This document shows positions 1 through 9,377 of a DNA stretch of 10,347 nt, one piece after another. The DNA is taken from the IMG/VR virus record IMGVR_UViG_2695420380_000013. One strand, given 5' to 3'. Numbering within the stretch: position 1 is the stretch's first letter; each line of letters begins with the position of its first letter. The notes beneath the pieces were generated by a model. It saw only the letters and a program-made list of their open reading frames with translations, was not told the origin of the DNA and searched no databases. The DNA comes from a virus. Lineage: Duplodnaviria > Heunggongvirae > Uroviricota > Caudoviricetes. A program made the position numbers and the translations under genes.

Positions 1-31
1 TACACTAAATCAGTAAGTTGGCAGCATCACC
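1..31 (-). mobile_element. IS1 terminus (IRL end; body of the element lies left of the window)
   Basis: nt 1-31 tacactaaatcagtaagttggcagcatcacc is the reverse complement of the IS1 left inverted repeat (GGTGATGCTGCCAACTTACTGAT...). The same 31-mer recurs at 4097-4127, where it terminates the internal IS1 fragment. Confidence 0.85.
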
Positions 32-117
32 CCGCCACAGAACAATTATTGCTTTTGCCGTTGATGACAATAAAGTTTTTATCGCAGTGTCAGGGCGTGG
101 CGGATATCAAACTTTGG

Positions 118-1200
118 TCATTTTCTCTGGCTGATCTTTACCGGATAACCATCCCGAAGATCAATTAAGTGCTCCGGTTCAGAAGCAAACCATGCATAAG
201 ATCCCCACGCCAATTCTGGTATTGCCTTTTTAAAAGGCAGAGCACTTCTGTCCATAAATGCCGTAAGGAATGCAAGATTTTTCTCGCTGAACCCAGCGTC
301 AATAGCCAAATGAGTGAGAGTAACTTTTCGTTCCCTGTTTATAGGCCCATCTGTCGCAACTACTTCAGTGAAAACTACAAGCATGTCCGAACCCGTTCGG
401 TCCTCTCCCAAATCAATCAAAATAATATCTGGAAGTGCTTTTGAGGCATCAATATTCAGCCCCAATGCTTTTGCCAATACATCATCCTGAGCAACAACTT
501 TATTCCCGGATTCAGACAACCAGAGCACAGTTGGATTCTTAAGAAAATTAGGAGCAAAAACTTCGATGACGGCCTTAGCTATTGTACTTGACGGGCCCGG
601 AGCTAAAGTTCTCTTCTCTCCATTTGGGAAAGTGACGACTACGGCATCAGCAGCAATCACTGCCCCTGATTTCAATAAACGCAACCTAGCAAGAGCGGCT
701 TTGTTCAAATGATTTTCTTGCCAGGAACTTATTGCACTCAGCAGCGAATCTCCTTCAAGCCCGGCATCAAAGAGTGCTGCAAAAGAGCGATTCAAACTGT
801 AACGAGGACGAGAGGATGTGGTGGGTATACCTTTACGCTCAACAATTGCATTGCAAGGTATTAGGCCATTTTTTATAGTTTCATCACGTATTGGCTCACG
901 CGTATTTTCCGCATACCATGCATCAGCAGGCCTTATCTTTTGTTTAGAGAAAGTCATCTTTACCCAGCTTTCTCTGGACGCATCATCAGTAAGAGCAGCC
1001 TGCGAATCTCCCATACTTACAACCTGGCTGGGCCTTATCCATCGCCCCAGCCCCTCAACCGCACCAGCATAAAACATGACAAAAATTGTTTTTGCAGCTA
1101 TTTCCCGAATTAAATATCCACGATTCTCAGTCCCTTCAGGGAAAATTAATTGTAATCTTTCCCGGATAACATTCAATGGGGGAACAACAGGCAGATTCAT
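118..1200 (-). CDS. Candidate Type II restriction endonuclease (360 aa), partner of the upstream methyltransferase; family not established (possibly BsuBI/PstI-like)
   Basis: Long minus-strand ORF whose ATG (1200-1198) overlaps the methyltransferase stop (1199-1197) as ATGA, indicating translational coupling in an M-then-R operon. No ATPase or methyltransferase motifs. AT-rich like the methyltransferase gene. The endonuclease call rests on context; the family guess is from memory of the N-terminal region and is unverified. Confidence 0.55.
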   Translation of the reverse strand: MNLPVVPPLNVIRERLQLIFPEGTENRGYLIREIAAKTIFVMFYAGAVEGLGRWIRPSQVVSMGDSQAALTDDASRESWVKMTFSKQKIRPADAWYAENTREPIRDETIKNGLIPCNAIVERKGIPTTSSRPRYSLNRSFAALFDAGLEGDSLLSAISSWQENHLNKAALARLRLLKSGAVIAADAVVVTFPNGEKRTLAPGPSSTIAKAVIEVFAPNFLKNPTVLWLSESGNKVVAQDDVLAKALGLNIDASKALPDIILIDLGEDRTGSDMLVVFTEVVATDGPINRERKVTLTHLAIDAGFSEKNLAFLTAFMDRSALPFKKAIPELAWGSYAWFASEPEHLIDLRDGYPVKISQRK

Positions 1201-3029
1201 GCAATCATCACTCCATAGAAACCAGCGATAGTTCTCTCAATAATCCGTCTGTGGACGCCAGCATCAATTAACGATTGAATCTCCATCACCTGCTCCAGAG
1301 AAGGCAACGGGATTGAATTCAATTCATAGGCCGAAACAGCAACACTTCCGCTTATACACCTGAACGCCCGATCGACAACATGCGAATTAAGTAGCATATC
1401 AATAACATCAGGGCGAACCGCAGAGAACAATCCGTTTGAATATACAATATTAATATGGTTTTCAACTACTACGCCACCAGTTTCATCTATAAATCCCTGA
1501 GGTAAAATTGCCGCTAAAATCCTTCTGTCCTGTTCCTTCGATGTTGTCCGCTGAACAAGCACACATTCAGATTTTGTCACAAGGAAACCCTGTTGTGGGG
1601 TTATATCGATATAGGGAACATGATTTTTTCTGTCTGCACTAAAACGAAAACCAGCTGAAGTTATTGATTCCGCCCAGACTAATGGGTAGCTATTTTTTCC
1701 TTTCGTCGTACGCAACTGCGACTTAAATCGATTCCAGACTAACTGACCTGTAGAGACTGAGTATCCCAGATCAGCTAAACGCGTAGACATCTGTTTTAAT
1801 ACATTAAGAAAACAGGCATCATCTTTAACGCGTGGCAAAAGCCACGTTGCTCCACCTTTTTCTATATCAACATTACCTATTTTCTCAATTTTTGCTTTGT
1901 TCAACCCCTTAGGGACAAGTGAGGATACCTGGGCCCGAACTTTATGTTCTCCCGCCTTGAATGCTGTCAACATTGTTTCCTGGAGAACATCGTCAAAGAC
2001 CCCATCCCTGTCAGTGACGAAATCAAGGGCATACGGAGTAGTTTTTTCGGTCAAAAGGGTTCGCAGCGCGGTGAAATACTGCCCACCAAGAAAAGAAGTT
2101 GGCGTAAGAAATGCAATAACTCCTGTTTTCTCTTTAACCATGCGAACAGCTAAGTCGGTGAACAATCCATATAGATTTGCATGACCAAATAACGAACGAG
2201 AATATTTTTCTCTCGTTTTAATATCGAGAGTGACACGTCCGTAAGGCGGATTCCCTACCACAAGATCATAACCAGAAAATTTATCTTGCTGAAGCGCATC
2301 AGCAACAATAATTGTATCTTCAGGCAATCTACGTTTTACCTTTACACATAGTGGCATTAGTACAGATTCGAGCAATACCAAACTCATCCAAGCCGCAAAT
2401 GGATCGATTTCTATCCCCTTTAAACGACGACTGATTCTCCTCAACATCCATTCAGGGGAAGACCCCTTGTCTTTTTTTAACATTCGAATGGCTACTGGTG
2501 CCAAAAATGCACCGCCACCACACGCAGGATCAATAACCGATGCATGAGAAAAATCAACACCAGACTTTTCAGCCAGGTCCAAGAGACGCGCTACCAAAGG
2601 TGGGGGGGTATAGTAAGCCCCCAATTCCGAACGGTAAGCGGATGGCAGCATTACCGTATAAATTGACCCAATCAGATATCCAGCGTCCTCCGCCGGAAAT
2701 TGAGCAATAAGCTCACCTGTTCGTTCAGCGAGCTCGCGTGCATCACATGGAATGTCTTCTATGTAAACAGTGTGCGGTACTGCCCTCATTTTAATGCTGC
2801 TTTTTTGCTTTTTTGCAAGGGTATCCCAATATGCAGCTACGATGCTGAAGCAGTATGAGCGGGCATGCATCAACCTTGACTGCCCGGTTTTGTAATTGCC
2901 CGCATAACCTTTGGCCATGGCTTTACAAGTTTGATATCTTTCCAGATTAGAAAACTCATTATCTGTAAAAAAATCAAAATGTTGCACATTCATAATGTAA
3001 AATCCTAATGTATCAAACATGCGGGCCAT
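1197..3029 (-). CDS. N6-adenine-specific DNA methyltransferase, gamma-like motif order (610 aa from the first ATG; an alternative start at 2993 has a better-placed AGGA)
   Basis: Translation contains GAYYTPPPLVARLL (motif X-like), VIDPACGGGAFL (AdoMet-binding motif I) and VVGNPPYGR (catalytic NPPY motif IV), followed by a ~350-aa C-terminal region consistent with a target-recognition domain. Single uninterrupted ORF. Confidence 0.9.
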   Translation of the reverse strand: MARMFDTLGFYIMNVQHFDFFTDNEFSNLERYQTCKAMAKGYAGNYKTGQSRLMHARSYCFSIVAAYWDTLAKKQKSSIKMRAVPHTVYIEDIPCDARELAERTGELIAQFPAEDAGYLIGSIYTVMLPSAYRSELGAYYTPPPLVARLLDLAEKSGVDFSHASVIDPACGGGAFLAPVAIRMLKKDKGSSPEWMLRRISRRLKGIEIDPFAAWMSLVLLESVLMPLCVKVKRRLPEDTIIVADALQQDKFSGYDLVVGNPPYGRVTLDIKTREKYSRSLFGHANLYGLFTDLAVRMVKEKTGVIAFLTPTSFLGGQYFTALRTLLTEKTTPYALDFVTDRDGVFDDVLQETMLTAFKAGEHKVRAQVSSLVPKGLNKAKIEKIGNVDIEKGGATWLLPRVKDDACFLNVLKQMSTRLADLGYSVSTGQLVWNRFKSQLRTTKGKNSYPLVWAESITSAGFRFSADRKNHVPYIDITPQQGFLVTKSECVLVQRTTSKEQDRRILAAILPQGFIDETGGVVVENHINIVYSNGLFSAVRPDVIDMLLNSHVVDRAFRCISGSVAVSAYELNSIPLPSLEQVMEIQSLIDAGVHRRIIERTIAGFYGVMIA

Positions 3030-3089
3030 AACATCTCATGGTGGCGCATAGCAAACTGGCCCGAAGAATATCACGCACCAAGTCGATCT

Positions 3090-3103
3090 CATAACCCGTT
3101 ATG
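3090..3103. promoter_or_regulatory. Perfect 6-2-6 palindrome CATAAC-CC-GTTATG about 60 bp upstream of the methyltransferase start; candidate operator
   Basis: Read directly from the sequence (cataacccgttatg). Position between the upstream small ORF and the methyltransferase start codon. No recognisable sigma70 -35/-10 pair could be placed confidently nearby. Confidence 0.25.
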
Positions 3104-3243
3104 ACAATAAATCTTTGTAGCTGAACTCACTTGGTGATTTGTCAATCATTCCTGGCCTCCAGTTCGTCCTGAATCTCTTTATCGAGTTCACCGTATTTGT
3201 TAGTCCTCATCACTCACGACTTGACTTCCAGAAATAACCTTGA

Positions 3244-3600
3244 TTATTCGGGGCTATATTTTGTCACCCTGCGTATCCGCGCTTTCGCATTACGCTCAAT
3301 CTGGATTAGCTTTTCTATATTTTTTCGCCTTTCCCGCTCCTCCTGGCGCAAGAGCCTTACATCATCTGCCAGTCTGGTTTCTCTTTTCGCCACAGAGAGC
3401 ATCCAGTCAAATGGCTCCACAACTGCACCGCAAATTTTACAGCGGACCTGACGCTCTTTTTCGTCAACCCGGACAGAGGCGTGATGGCAATATGGTCTTT
3501 CCGATGGCTCATAAAGAAAATTAACCTGATTACGAGGGTTATCCTCTTTTACCGGAAATAAAACAATATTGCTTAACTCATCTTCTGGTTTTATTTCCAT
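3244..3600 (-). CDS. Hypothetical small protein (119 aa) with a zinc-ribbon-like CHH...CxxC motif and a basic coiled-coil-like C-terminus
   Basis: ATG at 3600 is preceded by a strong Shine-Dalgarno (AAGGAGAGGAGC then ATG). Translation MEIKPEDEL...YCHHASVRVDEKERQVRCKICGAVV...RLLRQEERERRKNIEKLIQIERNAKARIRR. Same strand as, and directly upstream of, the methyltransferase. The ORF track extends it to 3657, but that start lacks an RBS. Confidence 0.6.
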   Translation of the reverse strand: MEIKPEDELSNIVLFPVKEDNPRNQVNFLYEPSERPYCHHASVRVDEKERQVRCKICGAVVEPFDWMLSVAKRETRLADDVRLLRQEERERRKNIEKLIQIERNAKARIRRVTKYSPE

Positions 3601-3657
3601 GCTCCTCTCCTTTGATGCGAATGCCAGCGGTAATTGAAGCCTGATAGCTAATTTCAC

Positions 3658-3780
3658 TCACAGTACCGCCTCCTGAAAATCACCCTGATAGAAAGCCGGT
3701 ACACGCTGCATAACTTCACTCTTCCGGCACTCGCGACAGATTATGTTCTGATGTCTGTCGTAGCGGCGTATTTCTCCGTC
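3658..3780 (-). pseudogene. 3' remnant of a paralog of the hypothetical gene at 4200-4771, cut off at the N-run/IS1 junction
   Basis: Encodes DGEIRRYDRHQNIICRECRKSEVMQRVPAFYQGDFQEAVL, which matches the C-terminus of the 4200-4538 ORF (DGEIRRYDRRQNIICSECRKSEAMQRVLAFYQGNFQKVLL). The DNA at 3658-3780 aligns with 4200-4322 at roughly 85-90 percent identity. The upstream part is replaced by NNNNNNNN plus IS1 interior sequence. Confidence 0.6.
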
Positions 3781-3788
3781 NNNNNNNN
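3781..3788. other. Run of 8 N (unresolved bases or scaffold join) exactly at the junction between the phage-gene remnant and IS1 interior
   Basis: Literal n characters in the sequence. Confidence 0.95.
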
Positions 3789-4127
3789 GCCAGCGCTGGC
3801 GCGATTTAGCCCCGACATAGCCCCACTGTTCGTCCATTTCCGCGCAGACGATGACGTCACTGCCCGGCTGTATGCGCGAGGTTACCGACTGCGGCCTGAG
3901 TTTTTTAAGTGACGTAAAATCGTGTTGAGGCCAACGCCCATAATGCGTGCAGTTGCCATGTTTTACGGCAGTGAGAGCAGAGATAGCGCTGATGTCCGGC
4001 AGTGCTTTTGCCGTTACGCACCACCCCGTCAGTAGCTGAACAGGAGGGACAGCTGATAGAAACAGAAGCCACTGGAGCACCTCAAAAACACCATCATACA
4101 CTAAATCAGTAAGTTGGCAGCATCACC
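3789..4127 (-). mobile_element. IS1 fragment: IRL end plus insA region and 5' part of insB; truncated on the insB/IRR side, with an apparent internal deletion inside insA
   Basis: Ends with the IS1 IRL reverse complement at 4097-4127. The minus-strand translation contains the InsA N-terminus ([41 protein letters not shown]) and InsB residues ([52 protein letters not shown]). Relative to IS1 as I recall it, about 85 bp between ...GGCAACTGCA and CGCATTATGGGCG... are missing, which would frameshift insA. Only about 339 of 768 bp are present. Confidence 0.85.
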
Positions 4128-4199
4128 ACAGTGCTGAACTTAATTATTCAGATTTTGGATTATGCTTTCTCTTCACGAAGTTCCGATTGTTAATTTGGC

Positions 4200-4771
4200 T
4201 CACAACAGCACCTTCTGAAAATTACCCTGATAGAAAGCCAGTACACGCTGCATAGCTTCGCTCTTCCGGCACTCGCTACAGATTATGTTTTGACGCCTGT
4301 CGTAGCGGCGTATTTCTCCGTCTGGTAATGACCAGATAAGGTCAGGATCAACCACAGATGGTTTCTTCAGATTTGCCCTTGAGAGTTTTTTGCGGGCGTT
4401 TTGCCAGTCCTTACGCGCCTGTTCAGACGGGAATAACCCGTAACCAGAGTTGTATACATCGCCACTGGCAACCAGCTCTCTGGCGAGAACACTCATCAGA
4501 TATCTTGTCGCACCTGTCTTGGCTTCCAGTTGCCGCAACGTCTCGCGACCGCTCAGACGTACAAGTTCAACAACCTGCCCTTNNNNNNNNNNNNNNAGTT
4601 GTATACATCCCCACTGGCAACCAGCTCTCTGGCGAGAACGCTTATTAAATATCTTGTCGCCCCGGTTTTAGCTTCCAGTTGTCGTAACGTCTCGCGCCCA
4701 CTCTGGCGTACGAGTTCAACAACCTGCCCCTTAATTTTTTCCCGCTCTTCCTGTGTAAATACTTTTGCCAT
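4200..4771 (-). CDS. Hypothetical phage protein (gene X), reading frame interrupted by a diverged tandem duplication and a 14-N run
   Basis: ATG at 4771 (MAKVFTQEEREKIKGQVVELVRQSGRETLRQLEAKTGATRYLISVLARELVASGDVYN...), then the N-run, then a second copy of the same segment (RQLEAKTGATRYLMSVLARELVASGDVYNSGYGLFPSEQARKDW...NFQKVLL) ending at 4200. If the duplication were collapsed, a continuous protein of about 148 aa would result. No family recognised. Confidence 0.45.
4448..4732. repeat. Tandem duplication of a ~135-bp segment (4448-4582 and 4597-4732), copies roughly 88 percent identical, separated by 14 N
   Basis: Both units begin agttgtatacatc(g/c)ccactggcaaccagctctctggcgagaac and end ...gttcaacaacctgccc(c)tt. 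About 16 scattered mismatches, so not a simple read-level duplication. Confidence 0.75.
4583..4596. other. Run of 14 N at the junction of the two tandem repeat units
   Basis: Literal n characters. Confidence 0.95.
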
Positions 4772-5824: not shown

Positions 5825-6417
5825 NNNNNNNNNNNNNNNNNNNNNNNNNNNNNNNNNNNNNNNNNNNNNNNNNNNNNNNNNNNNNNNNNNNNNNNNNNNN
5901 NNNNNNNNNNNNNNNNNNNNNNNNNNNNNNNNNNNNNNNNNNNNNNNNNNNNNNNNNNNNNNNNNNNNNNNNNNNNNNNNNNNNNNNNNNNNNNNNNNNN
6001 NNNNNNNNNNNNNNNNNNNNNNNNNNNNNNNNNNNNNNNNNNNNNNNNNNNNNNNNNNNNNNNNNNNNNNNNNNNNNNNNNNNNNNNNNNNNNNNNNNNN
6101 NNNNNNNNNNNNNNNNNNNNNNNNNNNNNNNNNNNNNNNNNNNNNNNNNNNNNNNNNNNNNNNNNNNNNNNNNNNNNNNNNNNNNNNNNNNNNNNNNNNN
6201 NNNNNNNNNNNNNNNNNNNNNNNNNNNNNNNNNNNNNNNNNNNNNNNNNNNNNNNNNNNNNNNNNNNNNNNNNNNNNNNNNNNNNNNNNNNNNNNNNNNN
6301 NNNNNNNNNNNNNNNNNNNNNNNNNNNNNNNNNNNNNNNNNNNNNNNNNNNNNNNNNNNNNNNNNNNNNNNNNNNNNNNNNNNNNNNNNNNNNNNNNNNN
6401 NNNNNNNNNNNNNNNNN
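5825..6417. other. Run of 593 N (gap or masked segment) covering the 5' part of the DnaC-like gene
   Basis: Literal n characters. ORF-track entries crossing it are artefacts of translating N as X. Confidence 0.95.
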
Positions 6418-6560: not shown

Positions 6561-6910
6561 NNNNNNNNNNNNNNNNNNNNNNNNNNNNNNNNNNNNNNNN
6601 NNNNNNNNNNNNNNNNNNNNNNNNNNNNNNNNNNNNNNNNNNNNNNNNNNNNNNNNNNNNNNNNNNNNNNNNNNNNNNNNNNNNNNNNNNNNNNNNNNNN
6701 NNNNNNNNNNNNNNNNNNNNNNNNNNNNNNNNNNNNNNNNNNNNNNNNNNNNNNNNNNNNNNNNNNNNNNNNNNNNNNNNNNNNNNNNNNNNNNNNNNNN
6801 NNNNNNNNNNNNNNNNNNNNNNNNNNNNNNNNNNNNNNNNNNNNNNNNNNNNNNNNNNNNNNNNNNNNNNNNNNNNNNNNNNNNNNNNNNNNNNNNNNNN
6901 NNNNNNNNNN
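6561..6910. other. Run of 350 N (gap or masked segment) covering the 3' part of the O-like replication gene
   Basis: Literal n characters. The 143-bp island at 6418-6560 between the two runs is open in two minus-strand frames, so the true reading frame and gene boundary cannot be decided. Confidence 0.95.
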
Positions 6911-7575: not shown

Positions 7576-8001
7576 TCAATGTACTGCCACAGCATTTCCT
7601 GCCGGGCCACCACGGTTCATCTGATTGAAACCGGCGATTGCCACTGCGACAAAATCATCAGCGTCTCTCACCAGTCGTTCATGCGTCTCCACCAGTTCCC
7701 GAAAATAAGCTGAACTGTGGCTGCGCATTCGAGCCACCAGCGGAGGTGGCATTGCCCTTTCGATCGCAGGTAACAACGCCTGAATTTTTTCAACAGCGTC
7801 AGGGGTGTCTTTATCCAGCCAACGGAAAATCTTTTGGGTGTTGAGATAAAGCGTGTTGTGCTTGCTGTCGTTATGCAGAACCGGAAACGTCATTCCCAGT
7901 TCGAAATAAACCCTGGTTATTTCAGCTGCCGGAACTTTTTCACCGTCCGGATGCGCCCAGGCTTTCATCGCCATGCGGATGTGTTCATGCTTGATTTTCA
8001 T
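7576..8001 (-). CDS. YdaT-like prophage protein (141 aa; occupies the cII position of the early-right operon)
   Basis: ATG at 8001 overlaps the stop of the upstream cro-like gene (ATGA). Translation MKIKHEHIRMAMKAWAHPDGEKVPAAEITRVYFELGMTFPV... Gene order cro-like, this gene, O-like, DnaC-like mirrors ydaS-ydaT-ydaU-ydaV of Rac-type prophages. Family name is from memory. Confidence 0.55.
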   Translation of the reverse strand: MKIKHEHIRMAMKAWAHPDGEKVPAAEITRVYFELGMTFPVLHNDSKHNTLYLNTQKIFRWLDKDTPDAVEKIQALLPAIERAMPPPLVARMRSHSSAYFRELVETHERLVRDADDFVAVAIAGFNQMNRGGPAGNAVAVH

Positions 8002-8892: not shown

Positions 8893-9087
8893 ATGAGTAC
8901 AGTCCTTTCCCCAATGGTTTCAGAATTTGAGACAGTTGAGCAAGAAAATAGTTACAACGAATGGCTGCGGGCCAAAGTAGCAGCAAGCCTCGCGGATCCC
9001 CGCCCGGCGATTCCGCATGATGAGGTAATGGCGGAAATGGAACAAATTATTGCCCAAATTGCTGCTGCAACTCACAGAGGTGAATAA
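8893..9087 (+). CDS. Small antitoxin (64 aa) partnered with the ParE-family toxin; ParE-associated (PaaA-like) antitoxin candidate
   Basis: ATG at 8893 with a GAGGAG Shine-Dalgarno upstream. Its stop TAA (9085-9087) overlaps the toxin ATG (9087-9089) as TAATG. Size and position are typical of type II antitoxins. No clear ribbon-helix-helix signature, so the family is inferred from context. Confidence 0.65.
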   Translation: MSTVLSPMVSEFETVEQENSYNEWLRAKVAASLADPRPAIPHDEVMAEMEQIIAQIAAATHRGE

Positions 9088-9377
9088 TGTTACCCGTTTT
9101 ATGGCTACCATCTGCTCGTGATGATTTGCGCCAGATCGTAGCCTACATAGCTAAAGAAAATCCCGCGGCAGCACGCAGAATGAAAATTCGAATTGAAACA
9201 TCCGTTTTGCCGCTCACAGAGCATCCTTACCTGTATCCTCCAAGCGAGCGAGTTCTTGGTCTTCGTGAAATTGTAACTCATCCTAACTACATCATCCTTT
9301 ACCGAGTAACAGCATCAAGCATAGAAGTAGTAAATATTGTGCATTCTCGAAGACAGTATCCAGGCAAAAACAGTTAA
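9087..9377 (+). CDS. parE: ParE/RelE-superfamily toxin (96 aa)
   Basis: Translation MLPVLWLPSARDDLRQIVAYIAKENPAAARRMKIRIETSV...YIILYRVTASSIEVVNIVHSRRQ matches the conserved ParE pattern (DL..I..YIA..NP.AA.R....I......YRV.....EI.RVLH.R). Translationally coupled to the upstream antitoxin. Confidence 0.85.
   Translation: MLPVLWLPSARDDLRQIVAYIAKENPAAARRMKIRIETSVLPLTEHPYLYPPSERVLGLREIVTHPNYIILYRVTASSIEVVNIVHSRRQYPGKNS

What the first reader, a model, noticed from the sequence alone, without database searches (positions are those of the whole stretch)
118..3029. IS1-adjacent, AT-rich restriction-modification cassette (N6A methyltransferase coupled to a 360-aa candidate endonuclease)
The methyltransferase is unambiguous: motif I DPACGGGAF and motif IV NPPY are both present. 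Its stop overlaps the start of a 360-aa ORF by ATGA, the classic arrangement of a co-translated M-then-R Type II system. The cassette is clearly AT-richer than the neighbouring prophage DNA and is bracketed by IS1 sequence (terminus at 1-31, fragment at 3789-4127), which suggests mobile defence cargo. The endonuclease family and the recognition site are unknown from sequence alone.
Basis: partly seen in the sequence, partly recalled or inferred. Interest (0 to 1): 0.6.

Follow-up and report, generated by a model that had tools for sequence, protein, structure and literature searches.

The report
Prophage-borne PstI-family restriction-modification gene pair
This is an ordinary, already-annotated two-gene restriction-modification system (a DNA adenine methyltransferase followed by a PstI/BsuBI-family cutting enzyme). 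It is carried by a lambda-like prophage remnant found in essentially all Shigella sonnei, and the only real unknown is which DNA sequence it recognises.

Summary
A 610-aa gamma-class N6-adenine DNA methyltransferase (1197-3029, minus strand; DPACGGGAF and NPPY) overlaps by ATGA a 360-aa ORF (118-1200). That ORF is a BsuBI/PstI-family Type II restriction endonuclease: both Pfam domains match, SdaI is the only solved relative, and the PD...ExV catalytic core is intact.

The M-then-R arrangement is kept in about 77 of 80 homologous loci across Proteobacteria. Both exact proteins occur on at least 1000 contigs, almost all Shigella sonnei, but in only 2 of 5426 complete E. coli genomes.

IS1 is not the vehicle. 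An E. coli prophage carries the same 3.7 kb at 99.4-99.8% identity without IS1. Kluyvera and Citrobacter lambdoid prophages carry 86-89% relatives in the same slot, after the replication genes and before RusA/DUF968. A related E. coli prophage has three small ORFs there instead. In S. sonnei, IS1 has cut off the neighbouring parE and the phage late genes.

Both proteins are only about 26% identical to the CTGCAG system EcoGIII, so the recognition site is undetermined; a TGCA-core site is my guess.

Verdict: a known kind, already annotated, low novelty.

The parts
1197..3029 (-). M gene: gamma-class N6-adenine DNA methyltransferase, 610 aa. An alternative start at 2993 would give 598 aa and is preceded by AGGA. 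Motif I is DPACGGGAF (residue 167) and motif IV is NPPY (residue 260). The C-terminal target-recognition region is homologous to that of M.EcoGIII.
   Evidence: Pfam Eco57I 1.7e-13 and N6_Mtase 2.1e-9. PADLOC MTase_II PDLC03338, 996 bits, residues 7-608 against profile positions 2-602 of 604. Motifs. 26% identity to M.EcoGIII over residues 248-584, E 7e-27. 598-aa gene calls in other assemblies.
118..1200 (-). R gene: BsuBI/PstI-family Type II restriction endonuclease, 360 aa. It has an N-terminal HTH DNA-binding domain and a C-terminal PD-(D/E)XK-variant nuclease domain with P257-D258 ... E279-x-V281.
   Evidence: Pfam PF17728 1.2e-30 (residues 10-172) and PF06616 9.3e-45 (residues 188-349). 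PADLOC REase_II PDLC03589, 426 bits, full length. SdaI 2ixs E 1.8e-16 by sequence and E 1.7e-15 by fold. Catalytic columns invariant in 200 sequences, and the query keeps every column conserved at 97% or more.
1197..1200 (-). ATGA overlap of the M stop and the R start. A GGAG ribosome-binding site lies at 1211-1214 inside the end of M.
   Evidence: Read directly from the sequence. The end of M lies within 0-50 nt of the R start in nearly all of 80 homologous loci.
3030..3135 (-). Conserved non-coding leader upstream of M. It contains a possible extended -10 element, TGATATTCT (3074-3066). This is an inferred promoter region, not a demonstrated one.
   Evidence: About 100 nt are nearly invariant between S. 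sonnei, Kluyvera and Citrobacter cassettes whose proteins differ by 11-14%. The consensus two-hexamer scan found no promoter here.
91..3239 (.). Extent of the exchangeable cargo cassette (about 3.15 kb): R, M and the leader, including a 22-aa ORF at 3143-3211 on the minus strand.
   Evidence: Homology to a related E. coli prophage (L002) stops at window 90 and resumes at 3240. L002 has three small ORFs (DUF7167 plus two hypothetical proteins) in between.
32..117 (+). 3' remnant of a parE toxin gene, cut by IS1 at 31/32. This is flank, not part of the R-M system.
   Evidence: Aligns to the 3' end of the RelE/ParE toxin CDS in L001 and L002. The intact ParD-ParE pair is present where IS1 is absent.
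1..31 (-). Terminal inverted repeat of a complete IS1 that lies to the left of the window. This is a secondary insertion.
   Evidence: Window 1-87, which runs from the IS1 end into the junction, matches seven complete S. sonnei chromosomes at 100%. In those chromosomes a full IS1 is followed by a mannitol-dehydrogenase gene.
3789..4127 (-). 5' fragment of IS1, in the same orientation as the copy at 1-31. It lies in a block (3781-4596) that is absent from complete S. sonnei genomes. It is not part of the R-M system.

Best explanation
The two genes form a Type II restriction-modification system of the PstI/BsuBI/SdaI lineage, carried as cargo in the early-right region of a lambdoid prophage.

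How it most likely works:
- The methyltransferase (gamma class: motif I, then NPPY, then a C-terminal recognition domain) puts m6A on a short, probably palindromic site in the host and prophage DNA.
- The endonuclease binds the same site through its N-terminal HTH domain. It cuts unmethylated DNA with a C-terminal PD...ExV nuclease domain.
- M and R are transcribed together, M first. The ATGA overlap couples R translation to that of M, so R is not made without M.
- The lysogen thereby restricts incoming phage and plasmid DNA. Loss of the pair should be penalised by post-segregational cutting.

History in S. sonnei: IS1 removed the phage late genes and the parE next to the pair, leaving the R-M fixed in the lineage.

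What is shown: gene identities, family membership, an intact catalytic core, conserved M-R linkage, the prophage slot, and the secondary nature of IS1. What is inferred: enzymatic activity, translational coupling, the promoter, and the defence and addiction roles. Not determined: the recognition sequence. My best guess is a TGCA-core site such as CTGCAG, at about 0.5.
For: - Family assignment of R and M.
- All 87 invariant columns of a 43-sequence alignment, and all columns conserved at 97% or more in 200 sequences, are kept in the query. These include P257, D258, E279, V281, G285 and R291, which are shared with the active EcoGIII enzyme and with SdaI.
- A homologous M lies immediately upstream on the same strand in about 77 of 80 loci. 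M and R diverge in parallel (M 40-67%, R 47-70% identity).
- Both exact proteins occur on at least 1000 contigs, mostly S. sonnei. The R protein is listed in 4192 blocks of the contig collection.
- A published survey counts 982 Type II systems in 994 S. sonnei genomes (PMC13293514).
- The same cassette occurs without IS1 in E. coli FDAARGOS_943, and 86-89% relatives occupy the same prophage slot in Kluyvera and Citrobacter.
- The phage-borne relative EcoGIII is biochemically active and methylates CTGCAG (PMC3893438).
Against: - No experiment or methylome for this system was found in the searchable literature.
- No consensus sigma-70 promoter was found upstream of M.
- Identity to the characterised CTGCAG enzymes is only about 26%.
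- CTGCAG is not depleted in DNA flanking 80 homologues (O/E 0.97), although that test had no control set.
- One S. sonnei assembly (L086) shows M split in two with R intact. Several other genes are also shortened there compared with the other assemblies, which suggests sequencing error.
Confidence: 0.85

Rival explanations
1. The methyltransferase is effectively solitary. The 360-aa gene is an inactive or silent relic, so the locus only methylates DNA (an epigenetic or anti-restriction role for the prophage) and does not restrict.
For: S. sonnei is a lineage with heavy gene decay, and IS1 sits 86 nt from the R stop. No promoter or activity data are available. The residue equivalent to SdaI K251 is Ala in this protein.
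Against: The same position is Thr in the biochemically active EcoGIII enzyme and Ala or His throughout the subfamily, so it is not diagnostic (PMC3893438). R is full length and keeps every highly conserved residue. The identical protein is kept across thousands of S. sonnei assemblies. M-R linkage is conserved across phyla.
Confidence: 0.08
2. The cassette is the passenger of an IS1 composite transposon, and it moves between genomes as an IS1-flanked unit.
For: An IS1 end lies at 1-31 and an IS1 fragment at 3789-4127.
Against: The same 3.7 kb occurs at 99.4-99.8% identity with no IS1 in E. coli FDAARGOS_943, in a further E. coli genome (VL7S7) and in assembly GCA_900450175.1. The right-hand IS1 piece is an incomplete fragment, and complete S. 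sonnei genomes do not have it at this position. Both pieces have the same orientation, with only one true IS1 end adjoining the segment. Relatives in Kluyvera and Citrobacter sit in the homologous prophage slot without IS1.
Confidence: 0.03
3. The pair is active, but its main selected role is as an addiction module that stabilises the prophage remnant through post-segregational killing, rather than defence against phage.
For: It persists in nearly all S. sonnei even though the surrounding prophage is degraded and truncated by IS1. It sits next to toxin-antitoxin pairs (ParDE in L001; PaaA2-ParE at 8893-9377), which occupy similar stabilising niches.
Against: S. sonnei is a young clone, so persistence may simply be inheritance. 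Nothing here separates the two roles, and they are not exclusive. The relatives are carried by intact-looking temperate phages in Kluyvera and Citrobacter, where superinfection exclusion is the usual reading.
Confidence: 0.25

Closest known systems
EcoGIII (R.EcoGIII / M.EcoGIII) of Stx2 prophages of E. coli O104:H4, O145 and O103; recognises CTGCAG
   Same: It is a prophage-borne Type II pair with the same gene order: M then R, with the R start overlapping the M end. R has the same two Pfam domains, and M is a gamma-class m6A enzyme. R aligns over residues 78-348 and M over residues 248-584 (PMC3893438).
   Different: Identity is only 26% for both proteins. R is 360 aa against 317, and M is 610 aa against 489, with an extra N-terminal region of about 120 aa. 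The position in the phage genome differs: next to cI in the Stx phages, and after the replication genes here. There is no DNA-level similarity. The specificity of the present pair is unknown.
PstI (Providencia stuartii) and BsuBI (Bacillus subtilis), the founders of Pfam PF06616/PF17728
   Same: Family membership is well above the gathering scores. The partner is an adenine methyltransferase.
   Different: PADLOC places this pair in a separate profile cluster: PDLC03589 at 426 bits, against 97 bits for PDLC03420, the next-best REase profile, whose 317 positions match the length of R.EcoGIII. I did not have the PstI or BsuBI sequences to compare directly.
SdaI (PDB 2ixs), CCTGCAGG
   Same: It is the only solved relative, by sequence (E 1.8e-16) and by fold (E 1.7e-15). 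It shares the two-domain layout, the PD...E.V core, and the N-domain residues Y96, R101, E102, R105, S129 and Y134.
   Different: Identity is 22%. The whole-chain TM-score is only 0.40-0.44 because the predicted domain arrangement differs and the model is of moderate confidence (pLDDT 76.7, pTM 0.49). SdaI K251 has no equivalent here.
Plasmid and chromosomal pairs of the same ~360-aa/~600-aa subfamily in Burkholderia, Xanthomonas phaseoli, Sphingomonas, Pseudomonas and others
   Same: R is 47-70% identical and M 40-67%. They have the same lengths and the same M-R adjacency.
   Different: They are carried on plasmids or chromosomes rather than in lambdoid prophages. None had a published specificity that I could find.

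Membership tests
BsuBI/PstI family Type II restriction endonuclease (Pfam PF17728 + PF06616) | Both the N-terminal HTH domain and the C-terminal nuclease domain score above Pfam's gathering thresholds | tested here: met
   PF17728 scores 106.6 bits (cut-off 27) and PF06616 scores 152.2 bits (cut-off 27).
BsuBI/PstI family Type II restriction endonuclease (Pfam PF17728 + PF06616) | Catalytic PD ... E-x-V core of the PD-(D/E)XK variant is present | tested here: met
   P257, D258, E279 and V281 are invariant in 200 aligned sequences, including EcoGIII R and SdaI.
BsuBI/PstI family Type II restriction endonuclease (Pfam PF17728 + PF06616) | Two-domain fold like SdaI | tested here: met
   SdaI (2ixs_A) is the only PDB match to the AlphaFold2 model at E <= 0.001 (E 1.7e-15, probability 1.00). 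The model is of moderate confidence.
BsuBI/PstI family Type II restriction endonuclease (Pfam PF17728 + PF06616) | Site-specific double-strand cleavage of unmethylated DNA | not testable with these tools
   This needs purified enzyme or in vivo restriction assays.
Gamma-class N6-adenine DNA methyltransferase | SAM-binding motif I precedes catalytic motif IV (NPPY), followed by a C-terminal recognition domain | tested here: met
   DPACGGGAF is at residue 167 and NPPY at residue 260. Residues 285-588 align to the Alw26I-family model, and residues 248-584 align to M.EcoGIII.
Gamma-class N6-adenine DNA methyltransferase | Pfam N6_Mtase / Eco57I domains score above the gathering thresholds | tested here: met
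   Eco57I scores 51.4 bits (cut-off 25.3) and N6_Mtase scores 37.6 bits (cut-off 20.4).
Gamma-class N6-adenine DNA methyltransferase | m6A is formed at a defined motif | not testable with these tools
   No methylome for S. sonnei or for the two E. coli carriers was found.
PstI isoschizomer (recognises CTGCAG) | Close sequence similarity to an enzyme shown to act on CTGCAG, or avoidance or methylation of CTGCAG | tested here: inconclusive
   Identity to EcoGIII R and M is 26%. Several N-domain residues are shared with EcoGIII and SdaI. CTGCAG has O/E 0.97 in 889 kb flanking the homologues, in a test without a control set.
IS1 composite transposon | Two complete IS1 copies bound the passenger, and the unit is found with them elsewhere | tested here: not met
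   The right-hand copy is a fragment that complete S. sonnei genomes lack at this position. IS1-free copies of the cassette exist in an identical context.
C-protein-controlled Type II R-M | A small HTH controller gene lies upstream of, or between, M and R | tested here: not met
   No ORF of 50 aa or more lies on the coding strand between 3030 and 3243. M and R overlap. Only a 22-aa ORF lies in the leader (sequence).
Type I, Type IIG or BREX methyltransferase | A fused nuclease, or HsdS/HsdR or PglZ-type partners, and a full-length match to those models | tested here: not met
   NCBIfam BREX PglX models score 17-37 bits against cut-offs of 400-900. The best PADLOC profile is Type II, full length. 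The only partner is a separate Type II REase.

The most novel reading that the evidence does not exclude
The ~360-aa/~600-aa subfamily to which this pair belongs recognises a sequence other than CTGCAG. It could be another TGCA-core site or something unrelated. Because the pair is fixed in S. sonnei and nearly absent from E. coli, it would then act as a lineage-specific barrier that shapes which phages and plasmids can enter this pathogen.
Probability: 0.35. Interest if true: 0.4.

Novelty: already known. Interest (0 to 1): 0.2.

Why it matters
There is little conceptual novelty. This is a textbook Type II R-M pair, and RefSeq already annotates it as a 'BsuBI/PstI family type II restriction endonuclease' next to an N-6 DNA methylase. 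Defence-system profile libraries detect it, and a published survey presumably counts it.

Its practical interest is local.
- It appears to be the one Type II system that almost every S. sonnei carries and almost no E. coli does.
- It could therefore affect phage therapy, phage typing, transformation efficiency and plasmid flow into S. sonnei.
- It may be the 'methylase gene' used as a species-specific PCR marker. I could not verify that.

Knowing its recognition site would let people pre-methylate DNA or choose phages that lack the site.

Tried and rejected
- Megablast of the cassette against 50,697 phage records found nothing for 90-3239. Only the backbone gene at 3240-3700 and the IS1 end matched.
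- tblastn against phages found only the 27%-identical EcoGIII-type gene of Stx phages. The pair is therefore not EcoGIII.
- The genome-contig scan (one genome per species) returned homologues at 70% identity or less and did not recover the source genome.
- Nine successful literature searches and one rejected query and six papers opened found no methylome or biochemical work on this system. The SdaI structure paper is not held.
- The palindrome-avoidance test on 889 kb flanking 80 homologues did not point to CTGCAG. It singled out CTCGAG (O/E 0.39). Without non-carrier controls from the same taxa I do not treat this as evidence of specificity.
- The consensus promoter and terminator scan gave nothing useful upstream of M or downstream of R.
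- Rfam found no RNA family in the window.
- I considered using the absence of the SdaI K251 equivalent as a sign of an inactive nuclease. I rejected this because the active EcoGIII enzyme also lacks it.
Full report
**What is in the sequence.** On the minus strand, 1197-3029 encodes a 610-aa protein and 118-1200 a 360-aa protein. The longer protein carries DPACGGGAF at residue 167 and NPPY at residue 260. Its TGA stop and the ATG of the shorter ORF share the four bases ATGA at 1197-1200, and a GGAG lies 10 nt upstream of that ATG. A second in-frame start at 2993, preceded by AGGA, would give 598 aa; some public gene calls use it. Window 1-31 is the exact terminal inverted repeat of IS1, and 3789-4127 is a 5' fragment of IS1A. 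The cassette has 43.6% G+C (GC3 35-37%). Adjacent prophage segments have 46.6-51%, but the far end of the window has only 45.4%.

**What the two proteins are.** The 610-aa protein matches Pfam Eco57I and N6_Mtase above threshold. It also matches a PADLOC Type II methyltransferase profile end to end at 996 bits. BREX, Type I and Type IIG models match only locally, far below their cut-offs. The closest solved structures are TaqI-type and Type I M subunits, through the catalytic domain only.

The 360-aa protein matches both domains of the BsuBI/PstI restriction-endonuclease family (PF17728 at 1.2e-30, PF06616 at 9.3e-45) and a PADLOC Type II REase profile over its full length at 426 bits. The only solved relative is SdaI, at E 1.8e-16 by sequence. 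SdaI is also the only significant fold match to an AlphaFold2 model (E 1.7e-15; model pLDDT 76.7, pTM 0.49).

**Is the nuclease intact?** I aligned 200 sequences: database homologues, translated loci, the EcoGIII enzyme and SdaI. P257, D258, E279, V281, G285 and R291 are invariant, and the query departs from no column conserved at 97% or more. All 87 invariant columns of a 43-sequence alignment include the query. The residue aligned with SdaI K251 is Ala. It is Thr in the EcoGIII enzyme, which has been reported as biochemically active (PMC3893438), and Ala or His throughout the subfamily. I therefore do not read it as a defect.

**Are the two genes a unit?** I examined 80 loci from one-genome-per-species contigs that encode a relative of R (47-70% identity; Burkholderia, Pseudomonas, Sphingomonas, Caulobacter-type organisms and others). 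About 77 of them encode a homologue of M (40-67% identity) immediately upstream on the same strand, usually ending within 0-50 nt of the R start. The same pairs occur on plasmids of Burkholderia glumae and Xanthomonas phaseoli. This linkage across phyla, with parallel divergence, is what a cognate R-M pair looks like.

**Where it lives and how it moves.** Both exact proteins are on at least 1000 contigs, named almost entirely Shigella sonnei. R is listed in 4192 blocks of the contig collection. A published survey reports 982 Type II systems in 994 S. sonnei genomes and calls the species uniform in R-M content (PMC13293514). That this is the system counted there is my inference.

Only 2 of 5426 complete E. 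coli genomes have the cassette. In one of them, FDAARGOS_943, 3.7 kb matches the window at 99.4-99.8% with no IS1. There it lies in a complete-looking lambdoid prophage, between a ParD-ParE pair and a small conserved gene, DUF977 and the replication genes. A related E. coli prophage has the same flanks but three small ORFs instead of the R-M pair, which fixes the exchangeable cassette at about 91-3239. Kluyvera huaxiensis and Citrobacter sedlakii carry 86-89% identical pairs in the equivalent slot of their own lambdoid prophages: after the replication genes and small early genes, before RusA (Kluyvera only), DUF968 and the lysis genes.

In seven complete S. sonnei chromosomes, a full IS1 follows R. 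Chromosomal genes come next (a mannitol dehydrogenase gene and a ydfZ homologue). The late half of the prophage and most of parE are therefore gone. IS1 is thus a later scar, not the carrier. The second IS1 piece in the window lies in a block that complete S. sonnei genomes do not have at this position.

**Expression.** The consensus scan finds no two-hexamer promoter upstream of M. However, about 100 nt upstream of M are almost invariant between the S. sonnei, Kluyvera and Citrobacter cassettes, even though the proteins differ by 11-14%. That stretch contains TGATATTCT (3074-3066, minus strand), which could serve as an extended -10 element. This is inference. No controller (C) gene is present.

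**Comparison with known systems and specificity.** To my knowledge, every biochemically characterised member of this family recognises CTGCAG or a site containing it (PstI, BsuBI, EcoGIII, SdaI). For EcoGIII this is documented in PMC3893438. The present R and M are each only about 26% identical to the EcoGIII pair of phage P13374, although the alignments span the DNA-binding part of R and the recognition part of M. Thirty columns are shared by the subfamily consensus, EcoGIII R and SdaI. They include the N-domain residues Y96, R101, E102, R105, S129 and Y134, which fits a related core site but does not prove one.

A palindrome-avoidance test on 889 kb flanking the 80 homologues showed no depletion of CTGCAG (O/E 0.97). 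CTCGAG was the most depleted six-base palindrome (O/E 0.39). There was no control set of non-carriers, so I record this as unexplained. The recognition site remains open. I put about 0.5 on a TGCA-core site.

**Verdict.** The IS1 'bracketing' is incidental, and the vehicle is a lambdoid prophage. The system is already annotated in RefSeq under exactly this family name and is recognised by defence-system profile libraries. It may also be the 'methylase gene unique to S. sonnei' used as a PCR marker (Cho et al. 2012, cited in PMC4943565 and PMC8767346), though I did not verify this. Novelty is low. The one open and easily testable question is its recognition sequence.

Noticed in passing
window 1-117; L001 8538-9112; L084 11084-11988: IS1 has cut the parE toxin gene of a ParD-ParE pair that is intact in the IS1-free E. 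coli prophage. In complete S. sonnei chromosomes this IS1 is followed directly by chromosomal genes, so the late half of the prophage has been deleted.
   Followed up: yes
window 87-90: All seven complete S. sonnei chromosomes examined, and E. coli FDAARGOS_943, have 68 bp here (the end of parE). The window has only 2 bp. This is either a strain-specific deletion or an edit or masking of the window.
   Followed up: partly
window 3781-4596: This block replaces 125 bp of the complete S. sonnei genomes. It consists of 8 N, an IS1 5' fragment with an internal 75-bp gap, a second copy of the DUF977 region (90% identical to the local copy, 99.8% to other E. coli prophages), and 14 N. It looks like a scaffold join or masking, or else a strain-specific rearrangement between two prophages.
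   Followed up: partly
window 5825-6417 and 6561-6910: Long N runs mask most of the DnaC/IstB-like gene and part of the replication-initiator gene of the prophage.
   Followed up: no
window 8893-9377 (+): A second toxin-antitoxin pair lies next to the prophage repressor: PaaA2-type antitoxin (64 aa, E 3e-23) and ParE toxin (96 aa, E 1.8e-17), whose genes overlap by one base. A YdaT-family gene lies at 7576-8001 (-).
   Followed up: partly
L003-L082 (flanks of 80 homologous R-M pairs): CTCGAG is the most depleted six-base palindrome (172 observed against 443 expected, and none at all in 28 of 80 loci). CTGCAG is at expectation. The test is uncontrolled for taxon.
   Followed up: partly
window 3030-3135 (-); L092 about 6100-6207; L094 about 6100-6171: About 100 nt of non-coding leader upstream of M are almost invariant across three genera. 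They include TGATATTCT, a possible extended -10 element. A 22-aa ORF (3143-3211, minus strand) lies just upstream.
   Followed up: partly
L086 8209-10004: One S. sonnei assembly (GCA_040189005.1) has the M gene split into 133-aa and 428-aa pieces while R is intact. The YdaT-family gene and the replication-initiator gene are also shortened there compared with the other assemblies, so assembly errors are the likelier cause. If the split is real, it would argue that R is silent.
   Followed up: no
window 3244-3600 (-): A conserved 118-aa prophage backbone gene has a weak zinc-ribbon signal (TFIIB-type, E 2e-4, below Pfam's cut-off). It is present in all related prophages regardless of the cargo next to it.
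   Followed up: no
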